A model generated the notes under the pieces. It saw only the letters and a program-made list of their open reading frames with translations. It was not told the DNA's origin and made no database searches. A program made the position numbers and the translations under genes. This document shows positions 37,933 to 61,283 of a stretch of DNA of 64,000 nt, piece after piece (within the stretch, counting starts at the first letter, position 1; each line of letters begins with the position of its first letter). This DNA comes from an uncultured Gammaproteobacteria bacterium (lineage in GTDB: Bacteria; Patescibacteriota; Patescibacteriia; CAYZDG01): assembly GCA_964536515.1 (NCBI GenBank), contig CAZHXI010000003.1, positions 9,112-73,111 of the forward strand, written 5' to 3'.

Positions 37933-39039
37933 ATGTCTAGTAATGGAAATGGGAACGGAAACGGCTCGAGCTGCCTGGTACCCAGCGTGCTGGTGCGCCC
38001 GAGCGAGGGCACGAGCAAGACGATCGTGAAGCTGGGAAGCATCCCGGCCGACGCAGGATCACTGAACGTCCGCATCGAAGAGGAACTGAAGGGCATTCGC
38101 CTGGTTCCAGTTGAAATCGGTTCGGACGCGGCCGATTGGCCGTTCGTGGTACGCGGTCCGGTCGTTGACGCTTCGGCAGATCGCCCGCACCAGGTATTCA
38201 TCTGCATCGAGATCGATGCAGCATACGAGTATGTAGACCTCTACATTACGGTCGTGGGTGACGACTCCCAGGCCAATGGAGAGCTGTTCCGCATCCCGAT
38301 AGTCGTCGTAGACGAGAGCAACGATGCGGCTAAGGCACAGCAGCCTATGACGCAGCTGCAGCTCGGAGCCATGGCGACCACGGCGATGGCGAACTGGCGC
38401 CTGCTGCAGCAACGGCAGGCGGCGCAAGCTGCAGAAGCGGCAGACCACGTAATTCAGACCACCGACGAGCCGATAGTCGAAGCGCTCGTTCTCAGCGAGA
38501 CGGCGCGCGAACCGGGATCTACCGACCCGGTGGCCGGTGGAGCAACAACGGCAGGCGGCACCCAGCCGACCGACGCGCCGACTACGATTGCAACGCAGCC
38601 CACGGCTGCAGCGACTCCGACAGCCGTCCAAACGGCAGCGTCAAGCGATGGTCGGACGACCGTACACATTGTGGCGAGCGGTACAGAGCAGGTCCTCGTA
38701 GGACCGATCAGCATCACGCCCGTCGTATCTGGCGCAGCTAGCTGTGCGCCCCAAGGCCCGACCGCAGCCGCAACAACGGGAGATCCGGATGCCCCAGTGG
38801 GGGCTTCACAGCTGCGGTGGGTAACCCTCGCCATGGCGGGCACGCTATTCCTAATTAGCTTCTTCGCCGCTGCTGAGAAGACGCCCGAGTGGATTCGCAT
38901 GGTTCCGAGCCTGCTCGGAGCTGGCATGTTCGGATTCCTCACGCTATGGCTGGGCGGCGCAAGACGCAACAACATCTGGCTGGCACTGGCCGCACTGTTT
39001 GCGGTTGCGACGTTAATCAGCGCAGGCTTGGGAGGCTAG
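37933..39039 (+). CDS. Hypothetical membrane-anchored protein (368 aa): N-terminal (NG)4 repeat, beta-rich domain, Thr/Ala/Pro-rich linker, two C-terminal TM helices
   Basis: AGGAGA RBS 6 nt upstream of the ATG; first gene of a three-gene plus-strand operon. Confidence 0.7.
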   Translation: MSSNGNGNGNGSSCLVPSVLVRPSEGTSKTIVKLGSIPADAGSLNVRIEEELKGIRLVPVEIGSDAADWPFVVRGPVVDASADRPHQVFICIEIDAAYEYVDLYITVVGDDSQANGELFRIPIVVVDESNDAAKAQQPMTQLQLGAMATTAMANWRLLQQRQAAQAAEAADHVIQTTDEPIVEALVLSETAREPGSTDPVAGGATTAGGTQPTDAPTTIATQPTAAATPTAVQTAASSDGRTTVHIVASGTEQVLVGPISITPVVSGAASCAPQGPTAAATTGDPDAPVGASQLRWVTLAMAGTLFLISFFAAAEKTPEWIRMVPSLLGAGMFGFLTLWLGGARRNNIWLALAALFAVATLISAGLGG

Positions 39040-39040
39040 C

Positions 39041-39625
39041 ATGGCAGACGCAAGAACCGGCTCGGTATTCACCGACGCCATTACCGACCTGCTGCTGCCT
39101 GCCCTCGGCATCCGTCTCTTCATGAAACGGAGCGAGGGTGGGCACAGCGATCCGACCGCGAGCAGCCAAGACGAATTCGCCCTACTGCACGCGCTCGAGA
39201 CGCTGGAGGGCGAGGACGCGAAGATGAAGGAGTTCATCCTCGGGTACCTAAGGTACCTCAAGTCTGAGAACAAGTCTCGCATAATTCCCCGACTCCGCGA
39301 GACCATAGCCCGGGCCGGGGGAAAAGATGGAGCGAAAGCTGAAGAGGTACAGAAGCTACTGGTCTCCATCTTTAAGGAAGAATTCGCGAAACTGGCTGAT
39401 GCCGCTGGGAACCAAAACACCACGGCAGCATACAGAAAGATCAGCGATGATTTGGACATAATTCTTACGCAGAGGCTGATGGCAACGCTGAGGGATCGGT
39501 GGGGTCAGTTTGCCGACTTCTTTGCCGACCTCGAGCAGCAGCACGTTGAGGCTGCAGATGATCTGGATGAGTTCTTCAGGAGCAGACGCGAGCGGAGACG
39601 TAACAGAAACCAAGGAAGGAGCTGA
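39041..39625 (+). CDS. Hypothetical acidic cytoplasmic protein (194 aa)
   Basis: GGGAGG RBS; start 1 nt after the upstream stop, so translationally coupled. Confidence 0.7.
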   Translation: MADARTGSVFTDAITDLLLPALGIRLFMKRSEGGHSDPTASSQDEFALLHALETLEGEDAKMKEFILGYLRYLKSENKSRIIPRLRETIARAGGKDGAKAEEVQKLLVSIFKEEFAKLADAAGNQNTTAAYRKISDDLDIILTQRLMATLRDRWGQFADFFADLEQQHVEAADDLDEFFRSRRERRRNRNQGRS

Positions 39626-39627
39626 AA

Positions 39628-41481
39628 GTGGAAATCAATCTGAAGGAGGGGAAGTTCAAGGTAGACCCCATAGCCGGTGAGGGCACCATCAAGAGCTTCC
39701 TACGGGCGCTGTTCTGGCTCTCACTCGCAGCCCTGCTCGGAGCGCTGTTCATGCCTAAGGCAGCAGCGAGCTGGCTGAAAAAGGCCGTGGACTACGCAGA
39801 CGAAGCCTGGGATGCCTGGGAGCCCAAGCTGAAGGGCTGGGGCCGGTGGCTGGTGAACCACGTAAGGACGTGGGGCCAGTTCCTGCTGGACGGATCGCTG
39901 AGACTCGTCAGCGCGACGCTGATCATCTCGGCATTCCTACTCCTGTTCTACACCGCTGGATTGGCGTACGCAGGCCCATTCGCAGTGGCTATGGCCGTAC
40001 CGATCGGCATCCTGGTACTGGTAGCTACATCGGTGGTCAACCTGCTGCCCCGACGCCTGTTCCCCAATAAGGGCAAGCTGAAGGATGTCGTTGGCATCAT
40101 AGGCATGTGGCCCATTGCCATAGCCGTGCTCATTGCCACGCTCGACATCCGTAAGCTGGGTGAGGGCGCGGTCGCCGTACTTTTACTGGTGGTACTCTTC
40201 TACCTCATCAGGGGTGGAGACATGCAGAGGGCACGGAAAGTTGCCCTGGCCGTACTGTGGTTCGGAATTGTGTTCCACTCGGTGAAGGTTGGCTTGCCGG
40301 CACTCGAAACCGGAGTCGCCGGTGGATGGGCCAAGGAGATGGCCAGCCACGTTTCGTTCTGGGATACAGAGCGAGACAAGGCTGCCGACATTCTGCGGGA
40401 ACGTGAGCTGGTATACAGCCAACGAACCTTCGGAGTCGCTACCGACACCATTGACGTTGTCCTGCTGCCGACCTACGCCAACGGCAACGTAACCTTGGGT
40501 GAAATAGCTACCAGCATTCTGCCGCAGGATGTTCTGGAAATTCTGACGGACGAGAAGGCGGCAGCCTGGGGCGCAGAGTTCAACGATCCCCTGCTCGCGG
40601 CGCTCGGCGATACAGCCAAGCACGCCCGCGCGGCGGCCAAACGTGGGCTGGGATTCGTGGACGTCTCCCTGGTTGCCTTCAAGGACCCGGGCAAGCGTAG
40701 GGTGTTCGAGCTGGAGCATGGCTCGGTAGCATTCTACGTACCCTGGGGCTCCGTCAGCGCGGACGCCAAGCTGACGGCGCAGAACGGCCAGGCAGCCACG
40801 CCGCGGGGGGAAGAGGTACCGAGAGACTTCTCCCTCACCGGGACGGTCAACGGCCGACGGGTCGGCGGGTCGGTATCGATTCGGGATACCGTCGGCACGG
40901 TAGACGAAGACGGCTGGATCACTGTCGTCTACAACGCCACTAAGAATCCGGTTATCCGCATCCCGCTCAAGACGCAGCCCGGAGACATCGTGGAGTTCGA
41001 ATACCTAGACGGCACGGTGGCCCACAGCCGCCTGCCGGACGGGTCGCAGGACCCAAAGTACCATGATAGGAACGGCTACCACTACGCCCACGACGTTGGG
41101 CCTAGCGGCTACGAGCCAGACCAAACAATGGGCCAGAGCTGGCAGCTGGCCCAGACGCAGCTGCTGAACCAGGGCGCGCCGTACATGTCGCTGCAGGTGG
41201 GCACATCGCCCAGCAACGTAGACCTACGCACGGTCTTCGCCTACGGCGAGAGCTACGCCACAGTAGAGGTAGCCAAGCCTGGAAGCTACCTGTACCTGGC
41301 GTTCAACGATGCATTCTACGACAGGAACTGGAGCGGCTCGGCAGCCACGTACCTCCAGTCCCAGTGCAACAGACGCATCGGATGGATAAAGTTCAGGGTC
41401 AGGATTGCGCCAGCGTACGACGCTGACGCTGACTCTGACGAAGAGTACGAGGAGCTGGGCTACGCCAGCAGAAGAAGATGA
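39628..41481 (+). CDS. Hypothetical polytopic membrane protein with a large, about 400-aa C-terminal extracytoplasmic domain (617 aa; GTG start with AAGGAG RBS)
   Basis: Five or six N-terminal TM helices; the C-terminal domain is rich in Gly/Tyr/Asn (beta-rich). Confidence 0.7.
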   Translation: MEINLKEGKFKVDPIAGEGTIKSFLRALFWLSLAALLGALFMPKAAASWLKKAVDYADEAWDAWEPKLKGWGRWLVNHVRTWGQFLLDGSLRLVSATLIISAFLLLFYTAGLAYAGPFAVAMAVPIGILVLVATSVVNLLPRRLFPNKGKLKDVVGIIGMWPIAIAVLIATLDIRKLGEGAVAVLLLVVLFYLIRGGDMQRARKVALAVLWFGIVFHSVKVGLPALETGVAGGWAKEMASHVSFWDTERDKAADILRERELVYSQRTFGVATDTIDVVLLPTYANGNVTLGEIATSILPQDVLEILTDEKAAAWGAEFNDPLLAALGDTAKHARAAAKRGLGFVDVSLVAFKDPGKRRVFELEHGSVAFYVPWGSVSADAKLTAQNGQAATPRGEEVPRDFSLTGTVNGRRVGGSVSIRDTVGTVDEDGWITVVYNATKNPVIRIPLKTQPGDIVEFEYLDGTVAHSRLPDGSQDPKYHDRNGYHYAHDVGPSGYEPDQTMGQSWQLAQTQLLNQGAPYMSLQVGTSPSNVDLRTVFAYGESYATVEVAKPGSYLYLAFNDAFYDRNWSGSAATYLQSQCNRRIGWIKFRVRIAPAYDADADSDEEYEELGYASRRR

Positions 41482-41547: not shown

Positions 41548-42096
41548 CTAAACGTCCTCAGCCTCGTACGCGGGGCGCCGGCGGCGGCGCAGCTTCTTGC
41601 CCACTATGGTCATGGCCACCAGGGGGATAACGTGCCACGCCAGCTGGGCCTCACCGGTTGCGAACGCACGCTTGGTATTGGCCGACAGCTGCTCAATTGC
41701 CTGCGGGGGCAGGTAGCTTATGACCGCGGCGATCATCAGCCCAACCAGCGTGAACGACAGGATGATGCTGTGGTACCACGCGCCGTCCTCTCCCCTATTG
41801 CCCACCAGGTTGCGCATTAGCCCGGCGTGCGAGAACAGGAAGAACACCAGCACGAAGACGGCCAGGAAGCCAACGGTCTGCACCATGGGGTGCTTGGCAA
41901 TGCCGTCGCCCAGCAGCTTCTCGGCTACCGGCGCGTACTTTTCCACCGCCAGGGCCATGTAGACGCTGACGATGGTAACCACCGTGCGCTGCCGACCCAG
42001 TGACAAGCCGAATATCACCGAGGCCACCACCAGGAACAGCAGGATGATGAAGTCCCAGCTCGGGGCACCCCAGTTGATTGCGTCTAGTGCGGGCAT
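41548..42096 (-). CDS. CvpA-like/hypothetical small membrane protein (182 aa)
   Basis: Four TM helices and a basic C-terminal tail; ATG confirmed at 42094-42096. Confidence 0.55.
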   Translation of the reverse strand: MPALDAINWGAPSWDFIILLFLVVASVIFGLSLGRQRTVVTIVSVYMALAVEKYAPVAEKLLGDGIAKHPMVQTVGFLAVFVLVFFLFSHAGLMRNLVGNRGEDGAWYHSIILSFTLVGLMIAAVISYLPPQAIEQLSANTKRAFATGEAQLAWHVIPLVAMTIVGKKLRRRRRPAYEAEDV

Positions 42097-42183
42097 ACTG
42101 TGGTTAAAGTATACAACAACAATTGACAGGAACCACCCTATGCGGCGCAGCTAGCCAGCGAATTGCTGGTTAAGATCATCTTA

Positions 42184-42212
42184 TTGACAGCTTAGCGCTA
42201 ATATGCTATTAT
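42184..42212 (+). promoter_or_regulatory. Canonical sigma70 promoter TTGACA-N17-TATTAT upstream of the 42262 gene
   Basis: Hexamers and spacing counted from the sequence. Confidence 0.6.
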
Positions 42213-42261
42213 ACATATATTACTTGAATAGTTTCACGTTTCATTGAAAAAGGAGTCCGTC

Positions 42262-42621
42262 ATGGACGTCATATATCTGGTATTCGGAGGCCCCAACTGG
42301 GCGACAATGCTCGGCCTCATGGCCGCATCTACCCTACTTATGGCTTCGTACATCTTCTCGTTGTCTCGGGCCTTTCGGCACCCGAAAGTTGCAGCTATCT
42401 CGCTCTTGGCTTGGGTGCCCCTGTGGTTCCTCTGCGTCGGACGAATCGACTCAAACTACGATGCAGCTGTAGCTATGGGCGCGCCGTACGACGGCGAGTA
42501 CCTCATCAGCGCTATCGTAGTTGCTCTGCTGCTGAACATTGTGGCCGCAGCAATGGTCCAGCCGCTGTTCCATCGAGTCCATGATTCGTTTCGGAACCAG
42601 CAAGCTCACCCTGTTGCCTAA
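42262..42621 (+). CDS. Hypothetical small membrane protein (119 aa from ATG 42262, AAGGAG RBS; track ORF TTG at 42244)
   Basis: RBS plus ATG; three TM helices. Confidence 0.65.
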   Translation: MDVIYLVFGGPNWATMLGLMAASTLLMASYIFSLSRAFRHPKVAAISLLAWVPLWFLCVGRIDSNYDAAVAMGAPYDGEYLISAIVVALLLNIVAAAMVQPLFHRVHDSFRNQQAHPVA

Positions 42622-42635
42622 CGCACCAAACAACT

Positions 42636-42669
42636 AGCCGCCCCCAAATCGGGGCGGCTTCTGTTATCT
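42636..42669 (+). terminator. Rho-independent terminator AGCCGCCCCC-aaat-CGGGGCGGCT + TCTGTTATCT
   Basis: Follows the stop at 42621. Motif shared with the terminators at 986..1017 and 43109..43138. Confidence 0.75.
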
Positions 42670-42754
42670 CAAGAGCCTTTGACAGACGCCCTGCCTGGGC
42701 GCATAAATATTCGGTCGCCATTCGTTCCTTAACCCGTAAAGCCCAGGAGGCCCC

Positions 42755-43093
42755 GTGAACATCTTCGACCTTCTCTACTCGTACCTCTCCGAGAGGTACA
42801 GCGTCGCAACTATGCTGCTCTCGGCCTGTAGCTCGCTAGCGCTCGCCGTGGCGATAGTCATCGCCGTCAACCTGCGCCGACGTGACCAGGCCATGGTCGC
42901 GCTGCTCATCTGGTTCGTCCTCATGTCTGCCGCCGCCGTTAGCGCCTCGGGGTGGGACAGGGTCGCCAGCAAGCTGGTGGCGGTCCACATCTGGAAGATC
43001 ATCCTGATGGGAGGTGTGATCTACGGCGTCTTCTGGCTGGGCCGCTTCCTACTGGGGCACGCGATTCGGTCATTCAACAGCAGCGATTGCTAG
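42755..43093 (+). CDS. Hypothetical small membrane protein (112 aa; GTG start with AGGAGG RBS)
   Basis: Strong RBS; three TM helices. Confidence 0.65.
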   Translation: MNIFDLLYSYLSERYSVATMLLSACSSLALAVAIVIAVNLRRRDQAMVALLIWFVLMSAAAVSASGWDRVASKLVAVHIWKIILMGGVIYGVFWLGRFLLGHAIRSFNSSDC

Positions 43094-43108: not shown

Positions 43109-43138
43109 TAGCCGCCCCCCGTGGGCGGCTTCTGTGCG
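43109..43138 (+). terminator. Rho-independent terminator AGCCGCCCC-ccgt-GGGCGGCT + TCTGTG
   Basis: Follows the stop at 43093; same motif family as the terminator at 42636. Confidence 0.7.
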
Positions 43139-43385
43139 TCTGGACACACTATTCGGGTCGCCTAGAACCTACTCATTGCGAGGGAGGCCACCGAAGCCTT
43201 GCGGAGGTGGCCGACCGCGGCAATCCCCTACTCAAAGCTCCAGGGCTTGATGAGGAGATTGCTTCGCTCCGCTCGCAATGAATAGAAAGTAGAGACTGTC
43301 ATGCCGGGCTCGACCCGGCATCTATTCAGCTCGAACCAATAAGACCCCGGATCGAGTCCGGGGTGACAGGCAGTCGTCTATTCAT

Positions 43386-43928
43386 CTATTCGTTCACTGT
43401 AAGAATTGCAAAATGCTTTTGCTTAAGCCGTTGCATTACTGTGGGATCAGTACTAGCCAGTAGCTTCCTGCAAGCAGACTCGAAATCGCTGAAAAAATCC
43501 TCAGCGATAAAGACCAGCTGAGTTTTCCCCTCTACCTCTACAATATCTAAATGAGAGTGCTCACCTGCGCCTGACTTCTGGGTTAGCATCAATCCACCGA
43601 CGCCCTCCAAATATACAGGTCGATGCAGATGGACCAATTTACCTCTGAATAGAACCTTCAAATCTAAAGCTTTGTCTTTTCCTACATACGAACGGTACTT
43701 TTGAGGGAATAGTTCATGCAAAGCTAATTCAAAATGCTCAAACGCCTTCCTGTCGTTAACCCAATCATGCTTAGGATCTAAACAAGATCCCAGGAACTCA
43801 ATTGCTAGCGTTAAGAGAATGAAGCTTGTGAAGTGGTGATCGTGTGCAATGGCACGATACTCATTCAACAGAACGCTTTCTATATATTGGGCTGTTGAGA
43901 TGTCAGAGCGACTCTCGATCTCCGCCAT
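43386..43928 (-). CDS. Low-GC (about 45%) hypothetical protein (180 aa) immediately downstream of dnaJ; possible HEPN-like R-x4-H motif (FRGKLVHLH)
   Basis: Composition contrasts sharply with the roughly 65% GC flanks. Its ATG sits 2 nt after the dnaJ stop codon. Confidence 0.6.
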   Translation of the reverse strand: MAEIESRSDISTAQYIESVLLNEYRAIAHDHHFTSFILLTLAIEFLGSCLDPKHDWVNDRKAFEHFELALHELFPQKYRSYVGKDKALDLKVLFRGKLVHLHRPVYLEGVGGLMLTQKSGAGEHSHLDIVEVEGKTQLVFIAEDFFSDFESACRKLLASTDPTVMQRLKQKHFAILTVNE

Positions 43929-43929
43929 A

Positions 43930-45015
43930 CTAGAACAGCTCCTCCAACGCGCGCTTCTGCTCCTTGGTCAGCTTATCGGGGGTGCGGACGTGAACGGTAA
44001 CCAGCTGGTCGCCGCGGCCGGAGCGGTGCAGGTGCGGCATGCCCTTGCCCGCCATCTTTAGGATGGTGCCGCTCTGGGTGCCAGCCGGGATCTTTAGCTT
44101 GGCTTCACCCTCGATGGTGGGCACGGCAACGGTGTCGCCCAGCGCCGCCTGCTTAATGGAGATGTGAAGGCTGCAGCGCAGGCTATCGCCGTCACGGGCT
44201 AGCTTGGGGTGCGGGGTAACTCGGATGGTTACGTACAGGTCGCCGGGGTGGCCGCCCTTAAGGCCAGCCTCGCCCTGGTGCTGCAGCCGCAGCGTCTGCC
44301 CGTCCGCAATGCCGGCGGGAATGGTTACGTCCAGCGTACGGCGGCGGCGCACCCTGCCCTGGCCGGTGCACTCCTTGCAGGGGGCAGACACCGTGGTGCC
44401 CTCGCCGTTGCACGTGGGGCAGAGCGTAGAGGTCTGGAAGGCGCCGAAGAACGTATCCTGCCGGCTGTTCACCGCGCCGCTGCCCTTGCACGTGGCGCAG
44501 GTGCTGCGGCTGCTGCCCGGCTCTCCCCCGCTGCCCTTGCACCTCTCGCACATTGCAGCCACGTCCATCTGCACCGTGCGCTTTGCTCCGCTGGCAGCCT
44601 CGGCCAGCGAGATGGTCAGCTGAGCCTCTACGTCGGCGCCGGCTTGGCGGCCGCCGTTGCCGCGGGCGGAGCTCCTACCCCGTCCTCCGCCACCGAAAAA
44701 TGATCCGAACAGGTCGTTGAGGTCAGCGCCCTGGCCGAAGTCGAACTGCACGCCGCCGGCGCCGAACGGGTTGCCCCCTCGGCCTGCTCCCCCGCCGCTG
44801 AACCTGGCGCCGTCGTGGCCGAACTGGTCGTAGGCCTGGCGCTTCTGCGTATCCGACAGCGCCTGGTAGGCCTCGTTCAGCTCCTTGAACTTGGCTTCGT
44901 CGCCGCCCTTCTTGTCGGGGTGCAGCTCGTGGGCCTTCTTACGGAAGGCCTTCTTGATCTCGTCCGCGGACGCACCCCGCGCCACTCCGAGGATTTCGTA
45001 GTAGTCGCGGGGCAT
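43930..45015 (-). CDS. dnaJ: Chaperone DnaJ
   Basis: J-domain with HPD, Gly/Phe-rich region, four CxxCxGxG zinc-finger repeats. Confidence 0.95.
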
Positions 45016-45027
45016 AGCTTCTTCAAC

Positions 45028-45126
45028 ACGTCATTGCGAGGAGCGAGCCGCAGGCGAGAGACGTGGCAATCCGCTACTAATCAGCAACACGATTGCCACG
45101 CTCCCTACGGTCGCTCGCAATGACGT
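45028..45126. repeat. Nested inverted repeat in the dnaK-dnaJ spacer (outer 13-bp ACGTCATTGCGAG/CTCGCAATGACGT; inner 10-bp CGTGGCAATC/GATTGCCACG)
   Basis: Read directly. Confidence 0.6.
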
Positions 45127-45133
45127 TGTTCAT

Positions 45134-47041
45134 TTACTTCTTCTCCTCGAACTCGGCGTCTACGGTCTCGCCGGCTGGCTTGGCCTGGCCATCTGCGCCC
45201 GGCTGCTCGGCGGCTGCGGACTGGGCGGCCTCCTGCGCCTTCTGAGCGTTGTACATCTCTTCGCCCAGCTTGCTGATTGCTGCCTGGTGCGTGTCTAGCT
45301 CGCGCCGGATTTCAGCAGCATCCTCGCTATCCTTTACCTTCTTGATAGCCTCAATGGCGGCCTCAGCTGCCGTCTTAACGTCGGCCGGCACCTTGTCGCC
45401 AGCCTCACGGATGGTGCGCTCGCCGGCGGCAATGGTGGCGTCTGCCGTATTGCGCATGTCCACCAACTCGCGCTTCTTCTGGTCCTCCTCGGCGTGCAGC
45501 TCGGCGTCCTTCTTCATCTTCTCCACCTCGTCCTTGCTCAAGCCAGAGGATGCGGTGATGGTAATGTTCTGCTCCTTGCCGGTCGCCTTATCCCTGGCGG
45601 CAACCTTGAGGATGCCGTTGGCGTCGATGTCGAAGCTGACCTCGATCTGCGGCACGCCGCGCGGCGCAGCCGGAATGCCAGACAGCTGGAACCTACCCAG
45701 GCTCTTATTATCCGGGGCCATCTCGCGCTCGCCCTGCAGCACGTGGATCTCCACCGTATCCTGGTTATCCGCCGCCGTAGAGAACGTCTCGCTCTTGGCC
45801 GTGGGCACGGTGGTGTTGCGCGGGATGAGGACGGTGCGCACGTGGCCCATGGTCTCGATGCCCAACGACAGCGGCGTTACATCCAGCAGCAACACGTCCT
45901 TTACGTCGCCCTGCAGAATGCCGGCCTGCACCGCGGCGCCGATGGCCACCACCTCGTCCGGGTTCACGCTCACGTTCGGCTTCTTGCCGAAGAACTCCTC
46001 CACCGTCTTCTGCACCAGGGGCATGCGCGTCATGCCGCCGACCAAGATGACCTCGTTGATATCCTTAGCCGTGAGCTTGGCATCGGCCAGGGCCTTGCGG
46101 CACGGCTCCAGCGTGGCCTGCACCAGGTCGTGCACCAGCTCCTCCAGCTTGGCGCGGCTGAGCTTTAGCACCAGGTGCATGGGGCCGCTGGCGCCGGTGG
46201 TGATGAACGGCTGGTTGATCTCGGTCTCGGCGCTGCTGGAGAGCTCCACCTTGGCCTTCTCGGCTGCCTCCTTAACGCGCTGCAGAGCCATGGGGTCTCC
46301 CGAGATGTCTACGCCAGACTCCTTCTTGAACTCGTCCAGGATCCACTTCATGATCCGCTGGTCGAAGTCGTCGCCGCCAAGGTGGGTGTCGCCGTTGGTG
46401 GCCTTAACCTCCACCGTGTCCGCGGCAATGTCGAGGACAGACACGTCGAACGTACCGCCGCCCAGGTCGTAAACCGCAATCTTCTGCTCGCCCTTCTTGT
46501 CGAAGCCGTAAGCCAGAGCTGCCGCGGTAGGCTCGTTGATAATGCGCCGAACGGTGAGGCCCGCAATCTCGCCCGCGTCCTTGGTGGCCTGGCGCTGGCT
46601 GTCGTCGAAGTAGGCCGGCACGGTGATGACCGCCTCGGTAACTGGCTCGCCCAGGCGCGCCTCGGCGTCTGCTTTCAGCTTCTGCAGCACCATGGCCGAC
46701 ACCTCCTGCGGGCGGTACGACTTGTCGCCCATTACTACCTCTACCCCGTCGCCGGCGCGCTGGATCTTGTACGACACCGTCTTCAGGTCGCGCTGAACCT
46801 CGGGGTCTTCGTATCGCCGACCGATGAGCCGCTTGACGGAGGCGACGGTGTTGGCCGGGTTGGTTACCGCCTGGCGCTTAGCCAGCAGGCCAACCAGGCG
46901 CTCGCCGTTCCTGCCGATAGCTACAATCGAGGGCGTGGTACGGCTGCCCTCTGCGTTCTCCAGAACCTTGGGCTGGCCGCCCTCCACCACGGCGACGGCG
47001 GAGTTGGTGGTGCCCAGGTCGATACCTAGAATCTTTGCCAT
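45134..47041 (-). CDS. dnaK: Chaperone DnaK (Hsp70)
   Basis: [18 protein letters not shown]... canonical Hsp70. Confidence 0.97.
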
Positions 47042-47056
47042 AGCTTTTAAGTATTG

Positions 47057-47401
47057 CTAGCTGATTAGAGAGGCACGCACCGCGGGCATTAGCCTGCCGC
47101 TGGCGGCCATATCCCAGGCGTCCAGCACGTCGTCAGCCGAAACGTCTTCGGCGGCGGCGAAGCGGGAAACCTCGTCGGATTCGAGATCGGTTAGGATGGC
47201 GTTGCCCACCAGCCCCTGGGGCATGGCCGCCACGCGGACGATGAGGCTGGCGCCGCACTTGGTGCACGACAGGTAGGCCAGGAAGCCGCCGGCGCCCTCC
47301 TCCAGAATGTCCACGTTAGCAGACACCTGCTCGGCGCGGCACATGGGGCACCGCTGCATCAGGCGGACATTGAAGGGGCTGGCGTTGAAGTCGTGCTCCA
47401 T
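47057..47401 (-). CDS. Hypothetical zinc-ribbon protein (114 aa; CPMC...CTKC) between hsp20 and dnaK
   Basis: Two CxxC pairs; co-oriented within the heat-shock operon. Confidence 0.45.
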   Translation of the reverse strand: MEHDFNASPFNVRLMQRCPMCRAEQVSANVDILEEGAGGFLAYLSCTKCGASLIVRVAAMPQGLVGNAILTDLESDEVSRFAAAEDVSADDVLDAWDMAASGRLMPAVRASLIS

Positions 47402-47448: not shown

Positions 47449-47862
47449 CTACGCTACGTCAATTTTAACCTGGGTCGGCTTGGCGCGCTCCTGGATGGGC
47501 ACGGTAATGGTCAGCACGCCGCTCTCGTACCTGGCCTTAGCCTTCTGGCCGTCTACGGCCGTGGGCAGGGCCACCGAGCGGTGGAACTGGCCGCGCCGAA
47601 CCTCGCGCCGGTAGTAGCGCTGGTCGTCTACCTCGGTCTTCTGCTCGTGCTGGCCGCTGATGGTTAGCACGTCGTTCTCGATGGCTACCTGCACCTTGCT
47701 GGGGTCGATGCCCGGCAGCGGAACCTCGGCCACTACGTCGTGGTCGGTCTGGTACACGTCCAGGCTGGGTGTCATGCCGGCCACGCGGCTGCCCCACAGC
47801 TCGGGCAGCAGCTGCTCGAATTCTCGCATTGGATCTACGGGGGTGAAACGGATGAGTGACAT
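47449..47862 (-). CDS. Small heat-shock protein, Hsp20/alpha-crystallin family
   Basis: Alpha-crystallin domain with the ...GVLTITVP... C-terminal motif. Confidence 0.9.
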   Translation of the reverse strand: MSLIRFTPVDPMREFEQLLPELWGSRVAGMTPSLDVYQTDHDVVAEVPLPGIDPSKVQVAIENDVLTISGQHEQKTEVDDQRYYRREVRRGQFHRSVALPTAVDGQKAKARYESGVLTITVPIQERAKPTQVKIDVA

Positions 47863-47901: not shown

Positions 47902-48414
47902 TTATGTCTCGGCCGTGGGCGCCTCGGGCGGGGGTAGGCCGCTGGAGACCACCACCTGCGCCGGCTGTATAACCTTGCCGTTCATGGTGTAGCCCGGGCG
48001 CACGGTGCGAATGACGGCCCCGGCCGGCTGGTCGCTGGGCTCGTGGCCAACGGCCTCCTGCAGCAGCGGGTCGAACACCCTTGGCTCGGGCATGGCCTGC
48101 ACACCCATCTTCTCCAGCAGCTGCTGCACCTGCCGCTGGATGTGGACCACGCCCTGCACCCAGGCCTCGGACTTCGCCTGCGCCGGGATGTGCTCCACGG
48201 CTAGGTCGAAGTTGGCGGAGACGGGCAGCAGCTCCAGCGCCAGCGCGCCCCGCGCCATCTCCATGAACTGGCCCTGCCGCTCCTGCCAGCTCTTGTCTAG
48301 GTTCACGTAGTCAGCCTGGGCGCGCTGCCAGCCCGCCAGGTTGGCGGCGGCCTGCTCGCGCAGCTGCTCCAGCTCGTCGGCGCCCTCGATTGGGTTCTGG
48401 TTCTCGGTGTCCAT
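47902..48414 (-). CDS. grpE: Nucleotide exchange factor GrpE
   Basis: GrpE coiled-coil and C-terminal beta domain (...FDPLLQEAVGHEP...). Confidence 0.9.
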   Translation of the reverse strand: MDTENQNPIEGADELEQLREQAAANLAGWQRAQADYVNLDKSWQERQGQFMEMARGALALELLPVSANFDLAVEHIPAQAKSEAWVQGVVHIQRQVQQLLEKMGVQAMPEPRVFDPLLQEAVGHEPSDQPAGAVIRTVRPGYTMNGKVIQPAQVVVSSGLPPPEAPTAET

Positions 48415-48424
48415 AGGTTCTGAT

Positions 48425-49108
48425 TTAACGGTGCGATGTAACGAAGGAAACGATGCCGCGGCTCAGGCCGTAGTCCATACGCTGCGGGCCGATGATGCCG
48501 AACAGGGCGCCGTCGGAGGTGCGGCCGTAGACCGTGCCGAAGGCGCTGCCGAACGGGCAGGCGCTGCCGATGCGCACGTCAACGTCGCCCACGTCCTTCC
48601 ACATCCGCTCCAGCGTAGAGCCGAAGTGGTCCAGCACCTCGGCCAGCGAGCAGACCATGCTGACCTCGGCGAACTCCGGTCGGCTGAAGACGGACGACAG
48701 GCCGGTGTAGTAGTAGCTGCTGGGCTGGAACGCCACGAACACCGCCGCGTCCGCGGCCTGGCTGCCGACCCTAGCCATTGCCTTCAGGCTCTCCTCGGTC
48801 TTGCCCACGTTGCGCTCCAGCTGCTGCTGAACGGACCGGGGCAGCCGGGGCTCGTCCGGCAGCTGGCCCACGTAGAAGCGGTAGCCCAGCTCGGTGGGTA
48901 CGCGGCCGGCAGACGTGTGGGGCTGGCGCAGGTACCCAGCCTCCTCTAGGGCAGCCAGGTCGTTGCGGATGGTGGCGGAGCTGCAGTCCAAGCCCAAATC
49001 CACCAGCTGGTGGCTGGAGACTGGCTCGGCCTGGGCAATGTACTGCCTCACCAGGGCGGCCAGGAGCTGCTGCTGCCGGGGCGTAATGGCGTTTACCATA
49101 GTTAGCAA
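48425..49108 (-). CDS. hrcA: Heat-inducible transcription repressor HrcA, short form (about 224-227 aa; likely start MVNAITPRQ)
   Basis: N-terminal winged HTH (...[17 protein letters not shown]...SSHQL...) and its position upstream of grpE-dnaK. Confidence 0.8.
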
Positions 49109-49128
49109 TCTATATACTAGACTGCTAA
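49101..49128. promoter_or_regulatory. CIRCE-like operator TTAGCAATC-N9-GACTGCTAA at the hrcA start
   Basis: Two mismatches to the TTAGCACTC-N9-GAGTGCTAA consensus. Confidence 0.65.
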
Positions 49129-60059: not shown

Positions 60060-61283
60060 ATGGAAAAACTGCAGCGACGGCTGCGTCTGTTCATAGTTCT
60101 CGCCCTGCTCACCGGAGCGGCGGCGGCTCTGTTCGTTGGCACCGCCAGCGCCCAGACGAGCACCGCCGAGACCGTAACCATTGGGGATATGGGGCTAACG
60201 GCTACCCCGCCGGCGGGTGGCTTCGCCCGGTGGTGGGACAGCTTCACGGACGGCGTAAGGCTGCAGTTTACCTTCAATGACCAGAGGAAAGCCGAGCTGC
60301 AGCTGCAGCGGGCCGCCAAGCTCCTCGCCCGACTAGAGCAGGCCGGGGGCGACGCCCAGGCAGAGCAGCTGCTGGCCAAGTACCGGGCCGCGGTGAACAA
60401 GATCGAAGCGGAAGCCGAGCTGAGCGACACGTTCCTGGGTAGGCTCCTGGCCCAGCAGAGCTTCATTACCCAAATCGAGGGCTCGGGCCGCTTCAGCTTG
60501 GGCGACCAGCTAGCCGTTACGCGCAACCAGAACTGGGAGAAGCTGAACGCAACCTTCGGCGATGCCGGAGCGCTTAGCCAGCGCCTAGCCAACCTACCTA
60601 CCGCCTCGCCCGAGGCAATTGCCAGGCGTGCGGCCATGCTGGAGGAGTGGCGGCAGCGCCTCTCGCCCGAGCAGCAGGCTAAGGCCGAGGCTGCCATAGG
60701 TGCACTGGTAGAGAAGCTCCGCAGCCTATCCCCCGCCCAGGCAGCGGCCATTGCCGAACGTCTGCACGCCTTCACCGCCAGCCAAGAAGCCCAGGCGTAC
60801 ATCGGGGCGCTCCTGGAGAAGGTGCAGCCTAGCCTGGAGGGGCTGGCTAAGCAGCTGGCGCAGCCCCGGCAGCCCAACCAAGACCCGACGCCGGCCAATG
60901 CCGCTGCCGGCATCCTGGGCAACGTTGCGGTGCCCCCCATGTCAGCCGGGGAGATTGCCGCCCGTCGCGCCGAGCTTGCCGAGGCGACCACCAAGGATGA
61001 GCTGCTGGCCCTACGCCAGCGCTGGTACGGCAACCCGGTGCTCTACCGGCAGCTATCGCAGTACCAGCGCACGCTGCTGGACCAGCTCAACGCCAAGCTG
61101 GTCAAAGCCCTGGGCAGGGGCTCGCAGCCGGTAACCCCCGCTGCTCCGACGGATCCGGACGCCGGCGTAACTCCCCTCCCCACCCAGCAGCTGACCCCCG
61201 AGCAGCAGGCAATGGGCCAGGCCTTCATCCAGATGCAGGGCATAGACTCCAGCGACCTACCGCCGCCCACGGTCTCTTACTAG
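60060..61283 (+). CDS. Secreted hypothetical alpha-helical protein (407 aa)
   Basis: Signal peptide; Ala/Gln/Leu-rich helical repeats. An extended -10-like TGGTATACT lies about 40 nt upstream. Confidence 0.65.
   Translation: MEKLQRRLRLFIVLALLTGAAAALFVGTASAQTSTAETVTIGDMGLTATPPAGGFARWWDSFTDGVRLQFTFNDQRKAELQLQRAAKLLARLEQAGGDAQAEQLLAKYRAAVNKIEAEAELSDTFLGRLLAQQSFITQIEGSGRFSLGDQLAVTRNQNWEKLNATFGDAGALSQRLANLPTASPEAIARRAAMLEEWRQRLSPEQQAKAEAAIGALVEKLRSLSPAQAAAIAERLHAFTASQEAQAYIGALLEKVQPSLEGLAKQLAQPRQPNQDPTPANAAAGILGNVAVPPMSAGEIAARRAELAEATTKDELLALRQRWYGNPVLYRQLSQYQRTLLDQLNAKLVKALGRGSQPVTPAAPTDPDAGVTPLPTQQLTPEQQAMGQAFIQMQGIDSSDLPPPTVSY

What the first reader, a model, noticed from the sequence alone, without database searches (positions are those of the whole stretch)
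43386..43928. Low-GC foreign gene grafted onto the 3' end of the dnaK-dnaJ operon
The 180-aa ORF is about 45% GC in a roughly 65% GC context. Its ATG sits 2 nt after the dnaJ stop codon, so it is very likely co-transcribed with the heat-shock operon. It contains an R-x4-H motif (RGKLVH) in a predicted helical protein, reminiscent of HEPN/Abi-type RNase toxins. This is a weak motif-level inference. Heat-shock-coupled expression of a horizontally acquired putative toxin or defence gene would be unusual.
Basis: partly seen in the sequence, partly recalled or inferred. Interest (0 to 1): 0.6.

Follow-up and report, generated by a model that had tools for sequence, protein, structure and literature searches.

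The report
Foreign HEPN-like gene after dnaJ
A small AT-rich, horizontally acquired gene sits on the very end of a probable candidate-phyla-radiation bacterium's heat-shock chaperone operon; it belongs to an undescribed, widely scattered protein family whose conserved Arg-x4-His signature and predicted helix layout resemble HEPN RNase toxins, but that kinship is not statistically proven.

Summary
ORF180 (43386-43928, minus strand) has 43.6% GC and 45% GC3, against 63% and about 85% around it. It is the lowest-GC stretch of the window (z -4.9). Its ATG lies one base after the dnaJ stop codon. It is the last gene of a CIRCE/HrcA-type operon (hrcA-grpE-hsp20-orf114-dnaK-dnaJ), and a terminator-like hairpin follows it. 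No homolog lies near dnaJ in 80 Patescibacteria loci or in two syntenic metagenome relatives, where dnaJ ends the operon. The window's DnaJ tail is shorter than in 11 relatives.

ORF180 is a real gene. It has 213 distant relatives, all unannotated, and its AlphaFold pLDDT is 93.8. It matches no Pfam, NCBIfam, PADLOC or PHROG family and no PDB fold.

R-x4-H is present in 179 of 186 family proteins. It sits at the end of the third core helix, and an invariant Glu lies in helix 2, as HEPN domains require. All direct HEPN matches are sub-threshold.

Homologs are AT-rich relative to their hosts, have no conserved partner, and often lie in defence, toxin-antitoxin or phage contexts.

Best reading: a mobile, stand-alone, HEPN-like RNase gene accidentally wired to heat-shock expression. 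The acquisition is well supported. The RNase or toxin function is plausible (about 0.35-0.4) but unproven.

The parts
43386..43928 (-). ORF180: a 180-aa protein of an undescribed family. It has R95-x4-H100, E44, D51, H126, E143 and D148. GC is 43.6%.
43926..43932 (-). Junction TAG-T-ATG: the dnaJ stop codon, one base, then the ORF180 start. This arrangement is typical of translational coupling.
   Evidence: sequence read directly
43939..43945 (-). Shine-Dalgarno-like GGAGGAG, with 10 nt between it and the ATG. It is formed by the dnaJ codons for L-E-E-L.
   Evidence: sequence read directly; its function is inferred
43344..43364 (-). Terminator-like GC-rich hairpin with a T-rich tail, 22 nt after the ORF180 stop codon. 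It is the likely end of the operon transcript.
43280..43386 (-). A hairpin structure of about 100 nt that encloses the terminator hairpin (dG -54.2 kcal/mol, z -4.9).
43930..45015 (-). dnaJ (Pfam DnaJ, DnaJ_CXXCXGXG and DnaJ_C domains). Its C-terminal tail is 3-12 aa shorter than in 11 relatives.
45134..47041 (-). dnaK
47057..47401 (-). orf114: a lineage-conserved small CxxC...CxxC protein between hsp20 and dnaK, with no Pfam match.
47449..47862 (-). hsp20
47902..48414 (-). grpE
48425..49108 (-). hrcA (Pfam HrcA C-terminal domain plus a DeoR-like HTH domain). The true start codon may lie downstream of the listed TTG.
49102..49128 (.). CIRCE-like operator TTAGCAATC-N9-GACTGCTAA, with 2 mismatches to the consensus. 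0.01 matches are expected by chance.

Best explanation
ORF180 is a horizontally acquired accessory gene inserted at the 3' end of dnaJ. The insertion probably replaced the last few dnaJ codons. ORF180 is now the last cistron of the HrcA/CIRCE-controlled hrcA-grpE-hsp20-orf114-dnaK-dnaJ transcript, and its translation is coupled to that of dnaJ (TAG-N-ATG).

Its product belongs to an undescribed, sporadically distributed family found in bacteria and phages. I interpret this family as a divergent branch of the HEPN superfamily: a metal-independent endoribonuclease. In this reading R95 and H100 at the end of core helix 3, together with E44 in helix 2, form the active site, probably across a homodimer. 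The protein would act as a stand-alone abortive-infection or toxin-like effector.

Shown: the foreign composition, the absence from relatives, the operon position, the existence of the family, the conservation of the motif, and the predicted topology. Inferred: co-transcription, HEPN homology, RNase activity and a defence role. The heat-shock wiring is most likely an accident of where a promoter-less gene landed, because family members are often appended to unrelated upstream genes.
For: Acquisition. GC is 0.436 and GC3 0.448, against about 0.64-0.69 and 0.85 in neighbouring genes, and ORF180 is the lowest-GC window of the 64 kb at z -4.9. A profile HMM of the family finds no homolog in 80 Patescibacteria dnaJ loci with 6-kb flanks. 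Two metagenome relatives (L095, L096) keep grpE-hsp20-orf114-dnaK-dnaJ; L096 also keeps hrcA. In both, dnaJ is the last gene and is followed by convergent genes. L096 also has the CvpA-like orf182 homolog downstream, so both flanks of ORF180 are native. The DnaJ tail is shorter than in 11 relatives.

Operon. The spacing is 1 nt, no promoter-like or terminator-like site lies on the minus strand between 49128 and 43364, a terminator-like hairpin follows ORF180, and CIRCE lies upstream of hrcA.

Family. There are 213 relatives at E<=1e-3 and none carries an annotation. The two AlphaFold2 models reach pLDDT 93.8 and 97.5.

HEPN-like features, judged against the definition in PMC3710099. R-x4-H occurs in 179 of 186 proteins and lies at the C-terminal end of helix 90-101. 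E44 is nearly invariant (at least 90% of sequences; invariant in the 21-sequence set) and lies in helix 32-50. Helical inserts lie between these two helices. [quoted passage not shown] Fifty-two members have E-x3-[KR], and 21 of them also have R-N-x3-H. Sub-threshold hits point the same way: HEPN_Cthe2314 over 116 residues (E 1.3e-3), CARF_HEPN in PADLOC, AbiV 9bj7 as the highest TM-score PDB hit for both models, and hhalign aligning RCGxxH or RNGxxH to the RNxxxH of a RiboL-PSP HEPN protein.

Mobility and defence flavour. Homolog genes have lower GC than their flanks in all 6 loci tested. Eight of 13 contexts contain MNT/HepT pairs, HigB-like genes, an IS3 transposase, restriction-modification genes, ImmA, GmrSD or phage genes.
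Against: No statistically significant sequence or structure match links the family to any HEPN family. The Pfam hit is a single member of 72 and falls below the gathering score. hhalign probability is at most 1% and covers only 12-13 columns. Foldseek gives AbiV E 1-2.5 and TM-score 0.28-0.32, which is in the random range.

The residue after the Arg is Cys in 73% of members and Gly in ORF180, not the usual Asn, Asp or His. ORF180 lacks the Lys/Arg of E-x3-[KR]. A beta-meander of about 35 residues lies between the putative helices 3 and 4, and terminal strands form a sheet; both are atypical for HEPN domains.

The conserved Cys49, Cys96 and Cys153 plus His and Asp residues could instead form a metal site. 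PADLOC contains no model for the family. There is no adjacent antitoxin and no conserved partner. Several homologs sit in plain housekeeping contexts. There are no expression or activity data, and co-transcription is inferred from the sequence only.
Confidence: 0.4

Rival explanations
1. ORF180 is a horizontally acquired accessory gene of an unknown, non-HEPN family. It could be a small metal-binding or thiol-dependent enzyme, or a binding protein. In this reading the conserved Cys, His, Asp and Glu residues form its site, the R-x4-H resemblance to HEPN is convergent, and the protein is not a toxin.
For: No significant match to any HEPN model or structure was found. The conserved residues include C49, C96 (73% of members) and C153, plus H100, H126, D51, E143 and D148. 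The fold is alpha+beta with a sheet of 4-5 strands. No antitoxin or partner exists, and some homologs are stably embedded among housekeeping genes.
Against: The position of R-x4-H at the end of the third core helix, together with an invariant helix-2 Glu, matches the HEPN definition closely. A subfamily has the full E-x3-[KR] plus R-N-x3-H signature. The weak hits in three independent libraries all point to HEPN.
Confidence: 0.35
2. ORF180 is a phage-derived 'moron'. It could be an anti-defence protein or a superinfection-exclusion protein left behind by, or transferred from, a phage. Here it is fortuitously expressed from the heat-shock operon.
For: Family members occur in an IMG/VR phage contig (L103, next to a DNA transfer protein and a RuvC-like resolvase) and inside a prophage tail region (L098). 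Two BFVD phage proteins share the fold (TM-score 0.53-0.62). Three members hit phrog_18591. The family is AT-rich relative to its hosts.
Against: Most homologs are chromosomal, outside recognisable prophages. No phage genes flank ORF180 in the window. tblastn against 50,697 phage records finds nothing. This origin is also compatible with the HEPN/abortive-infection reading, since prophages often carry such genes.
Confidence: 0.15
3. ORF180 is a native, functionally integrated member of the heat-shock regulon, such as a co-chaperone or a stress RNA-quality-control factor. In this reading its odd composition reflects constraints other than horizontal transfer.
For: It is tightly coupled to dnaJ, sits inside a CIRCE/HrcA operon, keeps all conserved residues and is intact.
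Against: It is absent downstream of dnaJ in all 82 related loci examined. Homologs elsewhere are never next to chaperone genes. GC3 is 45% against 85% in the neighbours.
Confidence: 0.04
4. The low-GC segment is an assembly or binning artefact: a chimeric join in a metagenome-assembled contig.
For: The source is evidently a metagenome-assembled genome. The exact protein is known from a single contig only.
Against: The segment is a 0.55-kb island with native high-GC sequence on both sides. Synteny is conserved on both sides: the dnaK-dnaJ operon upstream, and the CvpA-like orf182 downstream as in L096. The reading frame is intact and positioned exactly after the dnaJ stop codon, which is not expected of a chimeric join.
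Confidence: 0.03

Closest known systems
HEPN superfamily, stand-alone abortive-infection-type families (AbiV, PDB 9bj7; Pfam HEPN_AbiV)
   Same: Both are proteins of about 180-200 aa encoded by single genes. The conserved R-x4-6-H lies near residue 90-100 (AbiV R91/H97; here R95/H100). Both are mostly helical and occur in mobile or defence contexts. AbiV is the PDB entry with the highest TM-score to both models.
   Different: TM-score is only 0.28-0.32 and E is 1-2.5, so there is no significant sequence match. This family has an extra beta-meander and terminal strands. AbiV needs an upstream RNA antitoxin (abiV2), and nothing comparable is seen here because dnaJ lies upstream.
Pfam PF18730 HEPN_Cthe2314
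   Same: It is a stand-alone bacterial HEPN family with a conserved Rx4-6H motif and no conserved gene neighbourhood (PMC3710099). One family member (P0012) aligns over 116 residues with profile positions 54-165 of 174.
   Different: The score of 19.2 bits is below the 27.1-bit cut-off. Only 1 of 72 members hits the model, and ORF180 itself does not.
Type II/VII HEPN toxins with antitoxins (HepT-MNT) and other toxin-antitoxin modules
   Same: They carry the same putative R-x4-H catalytic signature. HepT/MNT pairs lie near three homologs (L083, L099, L100).
   Different: The family has no cognate antitoxin, MNT gene or conserved partner. The downstream neighbours of different homologs are unrelated to one another. 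hhalign against a HepT protein finds nothing.
Prophage 'morons' and promoter-less accessory genes appended to host operons
   Same: The genes are AT-rich relative to the host, sporadically distributed, and often 0-37 nt behind an unrelated co-directional gene. Examples are an aminotransferase in L087, a patatin gene in a JGI contig, DUF2971 in L100 and dnaJ here.
   Different: No phage or mobile-element genes, integrase or transposase were recognised next to ORF180 in the window.

Membership tests
HEPN superfamily (definition of Anantharaman et al. 2013, PMC3710099) | A conserved R-x4-6-H motif | tested here: met
   R-x4-H occurs in 179 of 186 family proteins. R95 and H100 are each at least 90% conserved, and ORF180 has RGKLVH.
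HEPN superfamily | The motif lies at the end of core helix 3 and the start of the loop to helix 4 | tested here: met
   In the ORF180 model the helix spans 90-101, R95 and H100 lie at its C-terminal end, and the conserved P104 follows. The P0151 model is equivalent: helix 81-92 with R86 and H91. These are predicted structures, not solved ones.
HEPN superfamily | A conserved acidic residue in helix 2, typically as E-x3-[KR] | tested here: inconclusive
   E44 is nearly invariant (at least 90% of sequences; invariant in the 21-sequence set) and lies in helix 32-50. Lys or Arg at position +4 is present in only 52 members, and ORF180 has Ser there.
HEPN superfamily | A polar residue (N, D or H) immediately after the Arg | tested here: not met
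   The residue is Cys in 135 motif occurrences and Asn in 39. It is Gly in ORF180.
HEPN superfamily | [quoted passage not shown] | tested here: inconclusive
HEPN superfamily | A statistically significant profile match to an established HEPN family | tested here: not met
   The best match is HEPN_Cthe2314 at E 1.3e-3 and 19.2 bits, below the 27.1-bit cut-off, for 1 of 72 members. hhalign against a RiboL-PSP HEPN protein gives probability at most 1% over the motif only. The PDB profile searches found no HEPN entry.
HEPN superfamily | Metal-independent RNase activity and a dimeric composite active site | not testable with these tools
   This needs biochemistry or multimer modelling.
Toxin-antitoxin module | An adjacent cognate antitoxin gene (or RNA) conserved across homologs | tested here: not met
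   Neighbouring genes of different homologs are unrelated. No plausible small ORF lies next to ORF180. Rfam finds nothing in the flank.
Known anti-phage defence systems (PADLOC-DB v2) | A match to a defence-system protein model | tested here: not met
   ORF180 has 0 hits. Among 72 members there are only four isolated hits, at E 0.005-0.009.
HrcA/CIRCE heat-shock operon | Same strand, no intervening terminator or promoter, and CIRCE upstream of the first gene | tested here: met
   There is a 1-nt gap to dnaJ. No terminator-like site lies on the minus strand between 49128 and 43364. CIRCE (2 mismatches) is at 49102-49128.
HrcA/CIRCE heat-shock operon | The gene is conserved in that position in related genomes | tested here: not met
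   It is absent from 80 Patescibacteria dnaJ loci and from the syntenic L095 and L096.

The most novel reading that the evidence does not exclude
ORF180 represents an undescribed clade of the HEPN superfamily with a beta-meander insert and a mostly R-C-x3-H motif. Its members are promoter-less, stand-alone RNase genes that spread by grafting onto the 3' ends of unrelated host or phage operons. In this CPR bacterium the graft places the RNase under HrcA/CIRCE control. Proteotoxic stress, including the chaperone demand caused by phage infection, would then switch on an abortive-infection-type RNase without any dedicated sensor or antitoxin.
Probability: 0.12. Interest if true: 0.75.

Novelty: new variant of a known kind. 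Interest (0 to 1): 0.5.

Why it matters
If the HEPN reading is right, this is a new family of stand-alone RNase effectors that is missing from Pfam, NCBIfam, PADLOC and the PDB. It has at least 213 cluster representatives across several bacterial phyla and phages. Its two very confident AlphaFold models have no solved structural neighbour.

The family's habit of sitting directly behind unrelated genes would illustrate how defence or toxin genes can borrow host regulation. In this case the borrowed regulation is the heat-shock regulon of a reduced-genome CPR bacterium, a group whose defence repertoire is poorly known.

If the HEPN reading is wrong, the family is still a well-defined, structurally novel, mobile protein family of unknown function that is worth a Pfam entry. 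The heat-shock coupling itself is a single-genome event and may have no adaptive meaning.

Tried and rejected
- **Family libraries.** Pfam, NCBIfam, PADLOC and PHROGs on ORF180 gave nothing except a spurious PEX-1N hit at E 0.025. The same libraries on 72-150 family members gave only scattered noise: SirC_C, Rad33 and others, phrog_18591 (3 members, unknown function), and no NCBIfam family.
- **PDB sequence searches.** The profile searches returned PARP1 BRCT (E 0.1) and GlcT CAT-PRD 3rio (E 0.016). I rejected both as noise. The GlcT alignment would place the family's helices 1 and 2 on what I recall, from my own knowledge rather than any check here, to be a beta-stranded CAT domain.
- **Annotated collections.** tblastn against the phage and plasmid collections found no match.
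- **Conserved partner or antitoxin.** The downstream genes of four homologs are unrelated to one another. No small ORF lies next to ORF180.
- **Domain fusions.** The long family members are insertion variants, apart from one 503-aa protein whose extension has no Pfam match.
- **Reaching further homologs.** An iterated word-indexed search with 150 sequences at E<=10 found no new or annotated relatives.
- **Structured RNA.** Rfam found nothing in the ORF180 flank or in the dnaK-dnaJ spacer.
- **Mobile-element ends.** The 14-nt inverted repeat at 43276-43289 and 43876-43889 that brackets the low-GC segment is at chance level among the 35 pairs reported, so I did not interpret it.
- **Paralogy of neighbours.** orf125 and orf112 are not related.
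- **Source genome.** The window's own genome was not found in genome contigs, and the exact-protein look-up found no contig.

Full report
**1. Observation**

Read directly from the sequence, the dnaJ stop TAG occupies 43932-43930. One base follows it, and the ORF180 ATG occupies 43928-43926. A GGAGGAG stretch at 43945-43939, formed by the dnaJ codons for L-E-E-L, lies 10 nt upstream of the ATG. It would serve as a ribosome-binding site.

ORF180 has GC 0.436 and GC3 0.448. The operon genes dnaJ, dnaK, orf114, hsp20 and grpE have GC 0.64-0.69 and GC3 0.85-0.92. Among all 543-nt windows of the 64 kb (mean 0.632, sd 0.040), ORF180 is the minimum, at z = -4.9. The next-lowest patch (0.506) lies just 0.8 kb away, at 42094-42636.

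**2. Genomic setting**

Pfam identifies the upstream co-directional genes as hrcA (48425-49108), grpE, hsp20 and dnaJ. dnaK is evident from 69% identity to relatives. orf114 has no Pfam match. A CIRCE-like inverted repeat, TTAGCAATC-N9-GACTGCTAA, lies at 49102-49128. It has 2 mismatches to the consensus, and 0.01 matches are expected by chance.

Gene spacings are 10, 39, 47, 15, 118 and 1 nt. The consensus scan finds no promoter-like or terminator-like site on the minus strand between CIRCE and ORF180. It does find a terminator-like hairpin at 43364-43344, 22 nt after the ORF180 stop codon. That hairpin is embedded in a structure of about 100 nt (dG -54 kcal/mol, z -4.9).

From the sequence alone, ORF180 is therefore the last cistron of a HrcA/CIRCE-type heat-shock operon. 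Its arrangement is typical of translational coupling. This is an inference; there are no expression data.

**3. Foreignness**

By DnaJ similarity the organism is a Patescibacteria/CPR-type bacterium. The best hits are 45-53% identical and come from Patescibacteria, Saccharibacteria and related MAGs. A profile HMM of the ORF180 family, searched against six-frame translations of all 80 dnaJ loci with 6-kb flanks, found no homolog.

I then used the lineage-specific orf114 as bait. This recovered four metagenome contigs that share parts of the grpE-hsp20-orf114-dnaK-dnaJ order; L095 and L096 extend through dnaJ, and hrcA is matched in L094 and L096. In L095, dnaJ is followed by convergent dus and cysS. 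In L096 it is followed by a convergent MBL-fold hydrolase and then a homolog of the window's CvpA-like orf182.

Three things follow:
- dnaJ ends the operon in relatives.
- The dnaJ-to-cvpA interval is variable.
- Both flanks of ORF180 are native. This argues against an assembly chimera.

In 11 relatives DnaJ runs 4-13 residues past the L-L-E-E-L motif (for example ...LLEELQKEGL). The window's DnaJ stops at ...ALEELF. This is consistent with the insertion having replaced the last dnaJ codons and created the TAG-N-ATG junction.

The first 30 nt of ORF180 are 57% GC. The N-terminus is about six residues longer than the family consensus. The 5' junction may therefore lie just inside the ORF. That last point is speculative.

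**4. ORF180 is a real gene of an undescribed family**

The word-indexed search found only ORF180 itself. The exhaustive phmmer search of 1.84 billion cluster representatives found 213 proteins at E<=1e-3 and 27 at E<=1e-10. They are typically 155-195 aa long and 25-39% identical to ORF180. All that carry any name are called 'hypothetical protein'. They come from MAGs labelled Chlorobiota, Vicingus (Bacteroidota), Thermodesulfobacteriota, Pseudomonadota and Bacillota, and from unlabelled MAG and metagenome contigs, one of them (CAZRJL01, holding P0171) being the assembly that also supplied dnaJ locus L029.

The near-invariant positions are F36, I43, E44, L46, G47, D51, F66, Y78, R95, H100, P104, H126, E143, D148 and A152. 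ORF180 keeps all 15, so it looks functional.

AlphaFold2 with the family alignment gives pLDDT 93.8 and pTM 0.89 for ORF180. For the consensus-like member P0151 it gives pLDDT 97.5 and pTM 0.92. No Pfam, NCBIfam, PADLOC or PHROG family covers ORF180.

Foldseek against the PDB finds nothing significant for either model. In BFVD, two uncharacterised phage proteins share the fold, with TM-scores of 0.53-0.62.

**5. Is it HEPN?**

I took the definition from Anantharaman et al. 2013 (PMC3710099):
- a four-helix up-down bundle made of two alpha-hairpins;
[quoted passage not shown] - a conserved acidic residue in helix 2, often as E-x3-[KR];
- a polar N, D or H after the Arg;
- juxtaposed termini.

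Features that fit:
- R-x4-H is present in 179 of 186 family proteins.
- In both models the motif lies at the C-terminal end of a helix: 90-101 in ORF180 and 81-92 in P0151. A conserved Pro follows it.
- The near-invariant Glu (at least 90% of sequences; invariant in the 21-sequence set) of the G-I-E-F-L-G motif lies in the second long helix.
- Two short helices (59-81) are inserted before the motif helix.
- The N- and C-terminal strands pair with each other.
- A last long helix (142-157) could be helix 4.
- Fifty-two members have E-x3-[KR], and 21 of them also have R-N-x3-H, which is the full canonical signature.

Four sub-threshold hits from independent libraries point the same way:
- P0012 against Pfam HEPN_Cthe2314: E 1.3e-3 and 19.2 bits against a 27.1-bit cut-off. 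The alignment covers protein residues 26-141 and profile positions 54-165 of 174.
- One member against the PADLOC CARF_HEPN model, at E 4.8e-3.
- AbiV (9bj7) has the highest TM-score of any PDB hit for both models. The values are 0.28-0.30 for ORF180 and 0.32 for P0151, against at most 0.24 for the other hits.
- The only local alignment hhalign produces against a bona fide RiboL-PSP HEPN protein superimposes RCGxxH or RNGxxH on its RNKMVH.

Features that do not fit:
- Every one of these hits is statistically insignificant.
- The residue after the Arg is Cys in 73% of motif occurrences, and Gly in ORF180.
- ORF180 lacks the Lys/Arg of E-x3-[KR].
- A beta-meander of about 35 residues interrupts the putative helix 3-helix 4 connection.
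- Conserved cysteines (C49, C96, C153) might indicate a different chemistry.

I put HEPN-superfamily membership at roughly 45-50%. I do not file the family as a proven member.

**6. What the contexts of homologs say**

I examined thirteen independent contexts.

There is no conserved partner. The genes downstream of four homologs are unrelated to one another.

Eight contexts contain mobile or conflict genes:
- MNT/HepT pairs in L083, L099 and L100;
- a HigB-like Gp49 gene in L083;
- an IS3 transposase directly downstream in L090;
- Bro-N, an Eco57I-type methylase and an HTH/ImmA pair in L085;
- GmrSD and HEPN_RiboL-PSP in L093;
- a prophage tail region in L098;
- an IMG/VR phage contig, L103.

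The others are housekeeping contexts. In six contexts, including the window, the gene lies between an overlap and 37 nt behind an unrelated co-directional gene. These are dnaJ, an aminotransferase (0 nt), patatin (10 nt), DUF2971 (37 nt) and two unknown genes.

In all six loci tested, the homolog has lower GC than its flanks, for example 0.36 against 0.51 in L090.

The family therefore behaves as a mobile, often promoter-less, stand-alone accessory gene. That matches stand-alone abortive-infection or HEPN genes such as Cthe_2314, for which no conserved neighbourhood is known. AbiV was long thought to stand alone as well, but is now known to need an upstream RNA antitoxin.

No protein antitoxin candidate lies next to ORF180. 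Rfam finds no known RNA in its flank.

**7. Most likely mechanism**

ORF180 was acquired horizontally and landed on the 3' end of dnaJ. It is transcribed with the heat-shock operon and translated by coupling to dnaJ. I infer that it encodes a HEPN-like, metal-independent RNase. In this model H100 acts as the general base, R95 stabilises the transition state or binds the backbone, and E44 assists. The enzyme probably works as a dimer and acts as an abortive-infection or toxin-like effector.

The heat-shock wiring is best explained as a by-product of the family's habit of piggy-backing on upstream genes. An adaptive link between stress or phage-induced chaperone demand and RNase expression is possible but unsupported.

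Confidence by step:
- Acquisition: about 0.9.
- Co-transcription: about 0.75.
- HEPN-like RNase with a conflict role: about 0.35-0.4.

**8. Rivals**

- A non-HEPN enzyme or binding protein of unknown function: 0.35.
- A phage-derived moron or anti-defence protein: 0.15. This overlaps with the main reading.
- A native heat-shock factor: 0.04.
- An assembly artefact: 0.03.

**9. Novelty and score**

The family is absent from Pfam, NCBIfam, PADLOC and the PDB, and it has a confident predicted structure without a solved neighbour. If it is HEPN, it is a new variant of a known kind of RNase effector. The operon graft is a single-genome event whose functional meaning is uncertain.

Interest is 0.5. 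This is a solid lead to a new family and a neat example of operon piggy-backing, but there is no functional proof and the direct HEPN matches are all sub-threshold.

Noticed in passing
window 45016-45133 (minus strand, dnaK-dnaJ spacer): The spacer folds into a near-perfect hairpin of about 110 nt (dG -68.3 kcal/mol, z -8.9). No T-run follows it and it has no Rfam match. Relatives L095 and L096 lack it; L096 has a 12-nt gap there. It could be a palindromic repeat or MITE-like insertion, or an attenuator or processing site that sets the dnaK:dnaJ(:ORF180) expression ratio.
   Followed up: partly
window 43165-43290: A second long palindrome lies between orf112 and ORF180. It shares the terminal TCATTGCGAG...CTCGCAATGA and the inner GCAATC...GATTGC with the dnaK-dnaJ spacer hairpin, which suggests a small family of palindromic intergenic elements. 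Only these two copies occur in the window.
   Followed up: partly
window 47057-47401 (minus strand): orf114 is a 114-aa protein with two CxxC pairs and no Pfam match. It is conserved (40-49% identity) at the same position between hsp20 and dnaK in four metagenome contigs. It looks like a lineage-specific, uncharacterised member of the CPR heat-shock operon.
   Followed up: partly
window 43930-43950 (3' end of dnaJ): DnaJ ends at ...ALEELF. In all 11 relatives checked the tail continues 4-13 residues further (for example ...LLEELQKEGL). The native tail appears to have been lost when ORF180 was inserted.
   Followed up: yes
window 42094-43093: The second-lowest-GC patch of the window (0.506) contains a near-consensus promoter (TTGACA-17-TATTAT with an upstream TG, at 42184-42212) and orf125. 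orf125 and orf112 are unrelated small membrane proteins. Each is followed by almost the same GC-rich terminator hairpin (42636-42659 and 43110-43130). The whole dnaJ-to-cvpA interval looks like a small variable islet.
   Followed up: partly
window 61056-61151 (minus strand): ARAGORN calls a 96-nt tRNA-Gly(GCC) here, but Rfam finds no tRNA at either the gathering or the E<=1 threshold. The site overlaps long ORFs, so it is probably a false positive.
   Followed up: yes
L087/L088/L089 6001-6516; JGI 3300075153 contig: In a probable Bacteroidota lineage the homolog starts at the base right after an aminotransferase gene (0-nt gap), and this arrangement is stable across at least 9 contigs. In another contig it lies 10 nt behind a patatin gene. 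This is the same grafted arrangement as behind dnaJ.
   Followed up: partly
proteins P0069, P0106, P0108, P0136, P0089: Some family members carry insertions of 100-150 residues between the G-I-E-F-L-G helix and the R-C-G-x-x-H helix. This is the position where HEPN domains tolerate inserts. One member has a 330-aa C-terminal extension with no Pfam match, and one has an N-terminal transmembrane segment.
   Followed up: partly
window 37933-41481 (plus strand): Three consecutive ORFs (368, 194 and 617 aa) have somewhat lower GC (0.56-0.63). The one I scanned has no Pfam match, and one has an NG-repeat N-terminus and membrane segments. They are possibly CPR surface proteins. I did not examine them further.
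   Followed up: no
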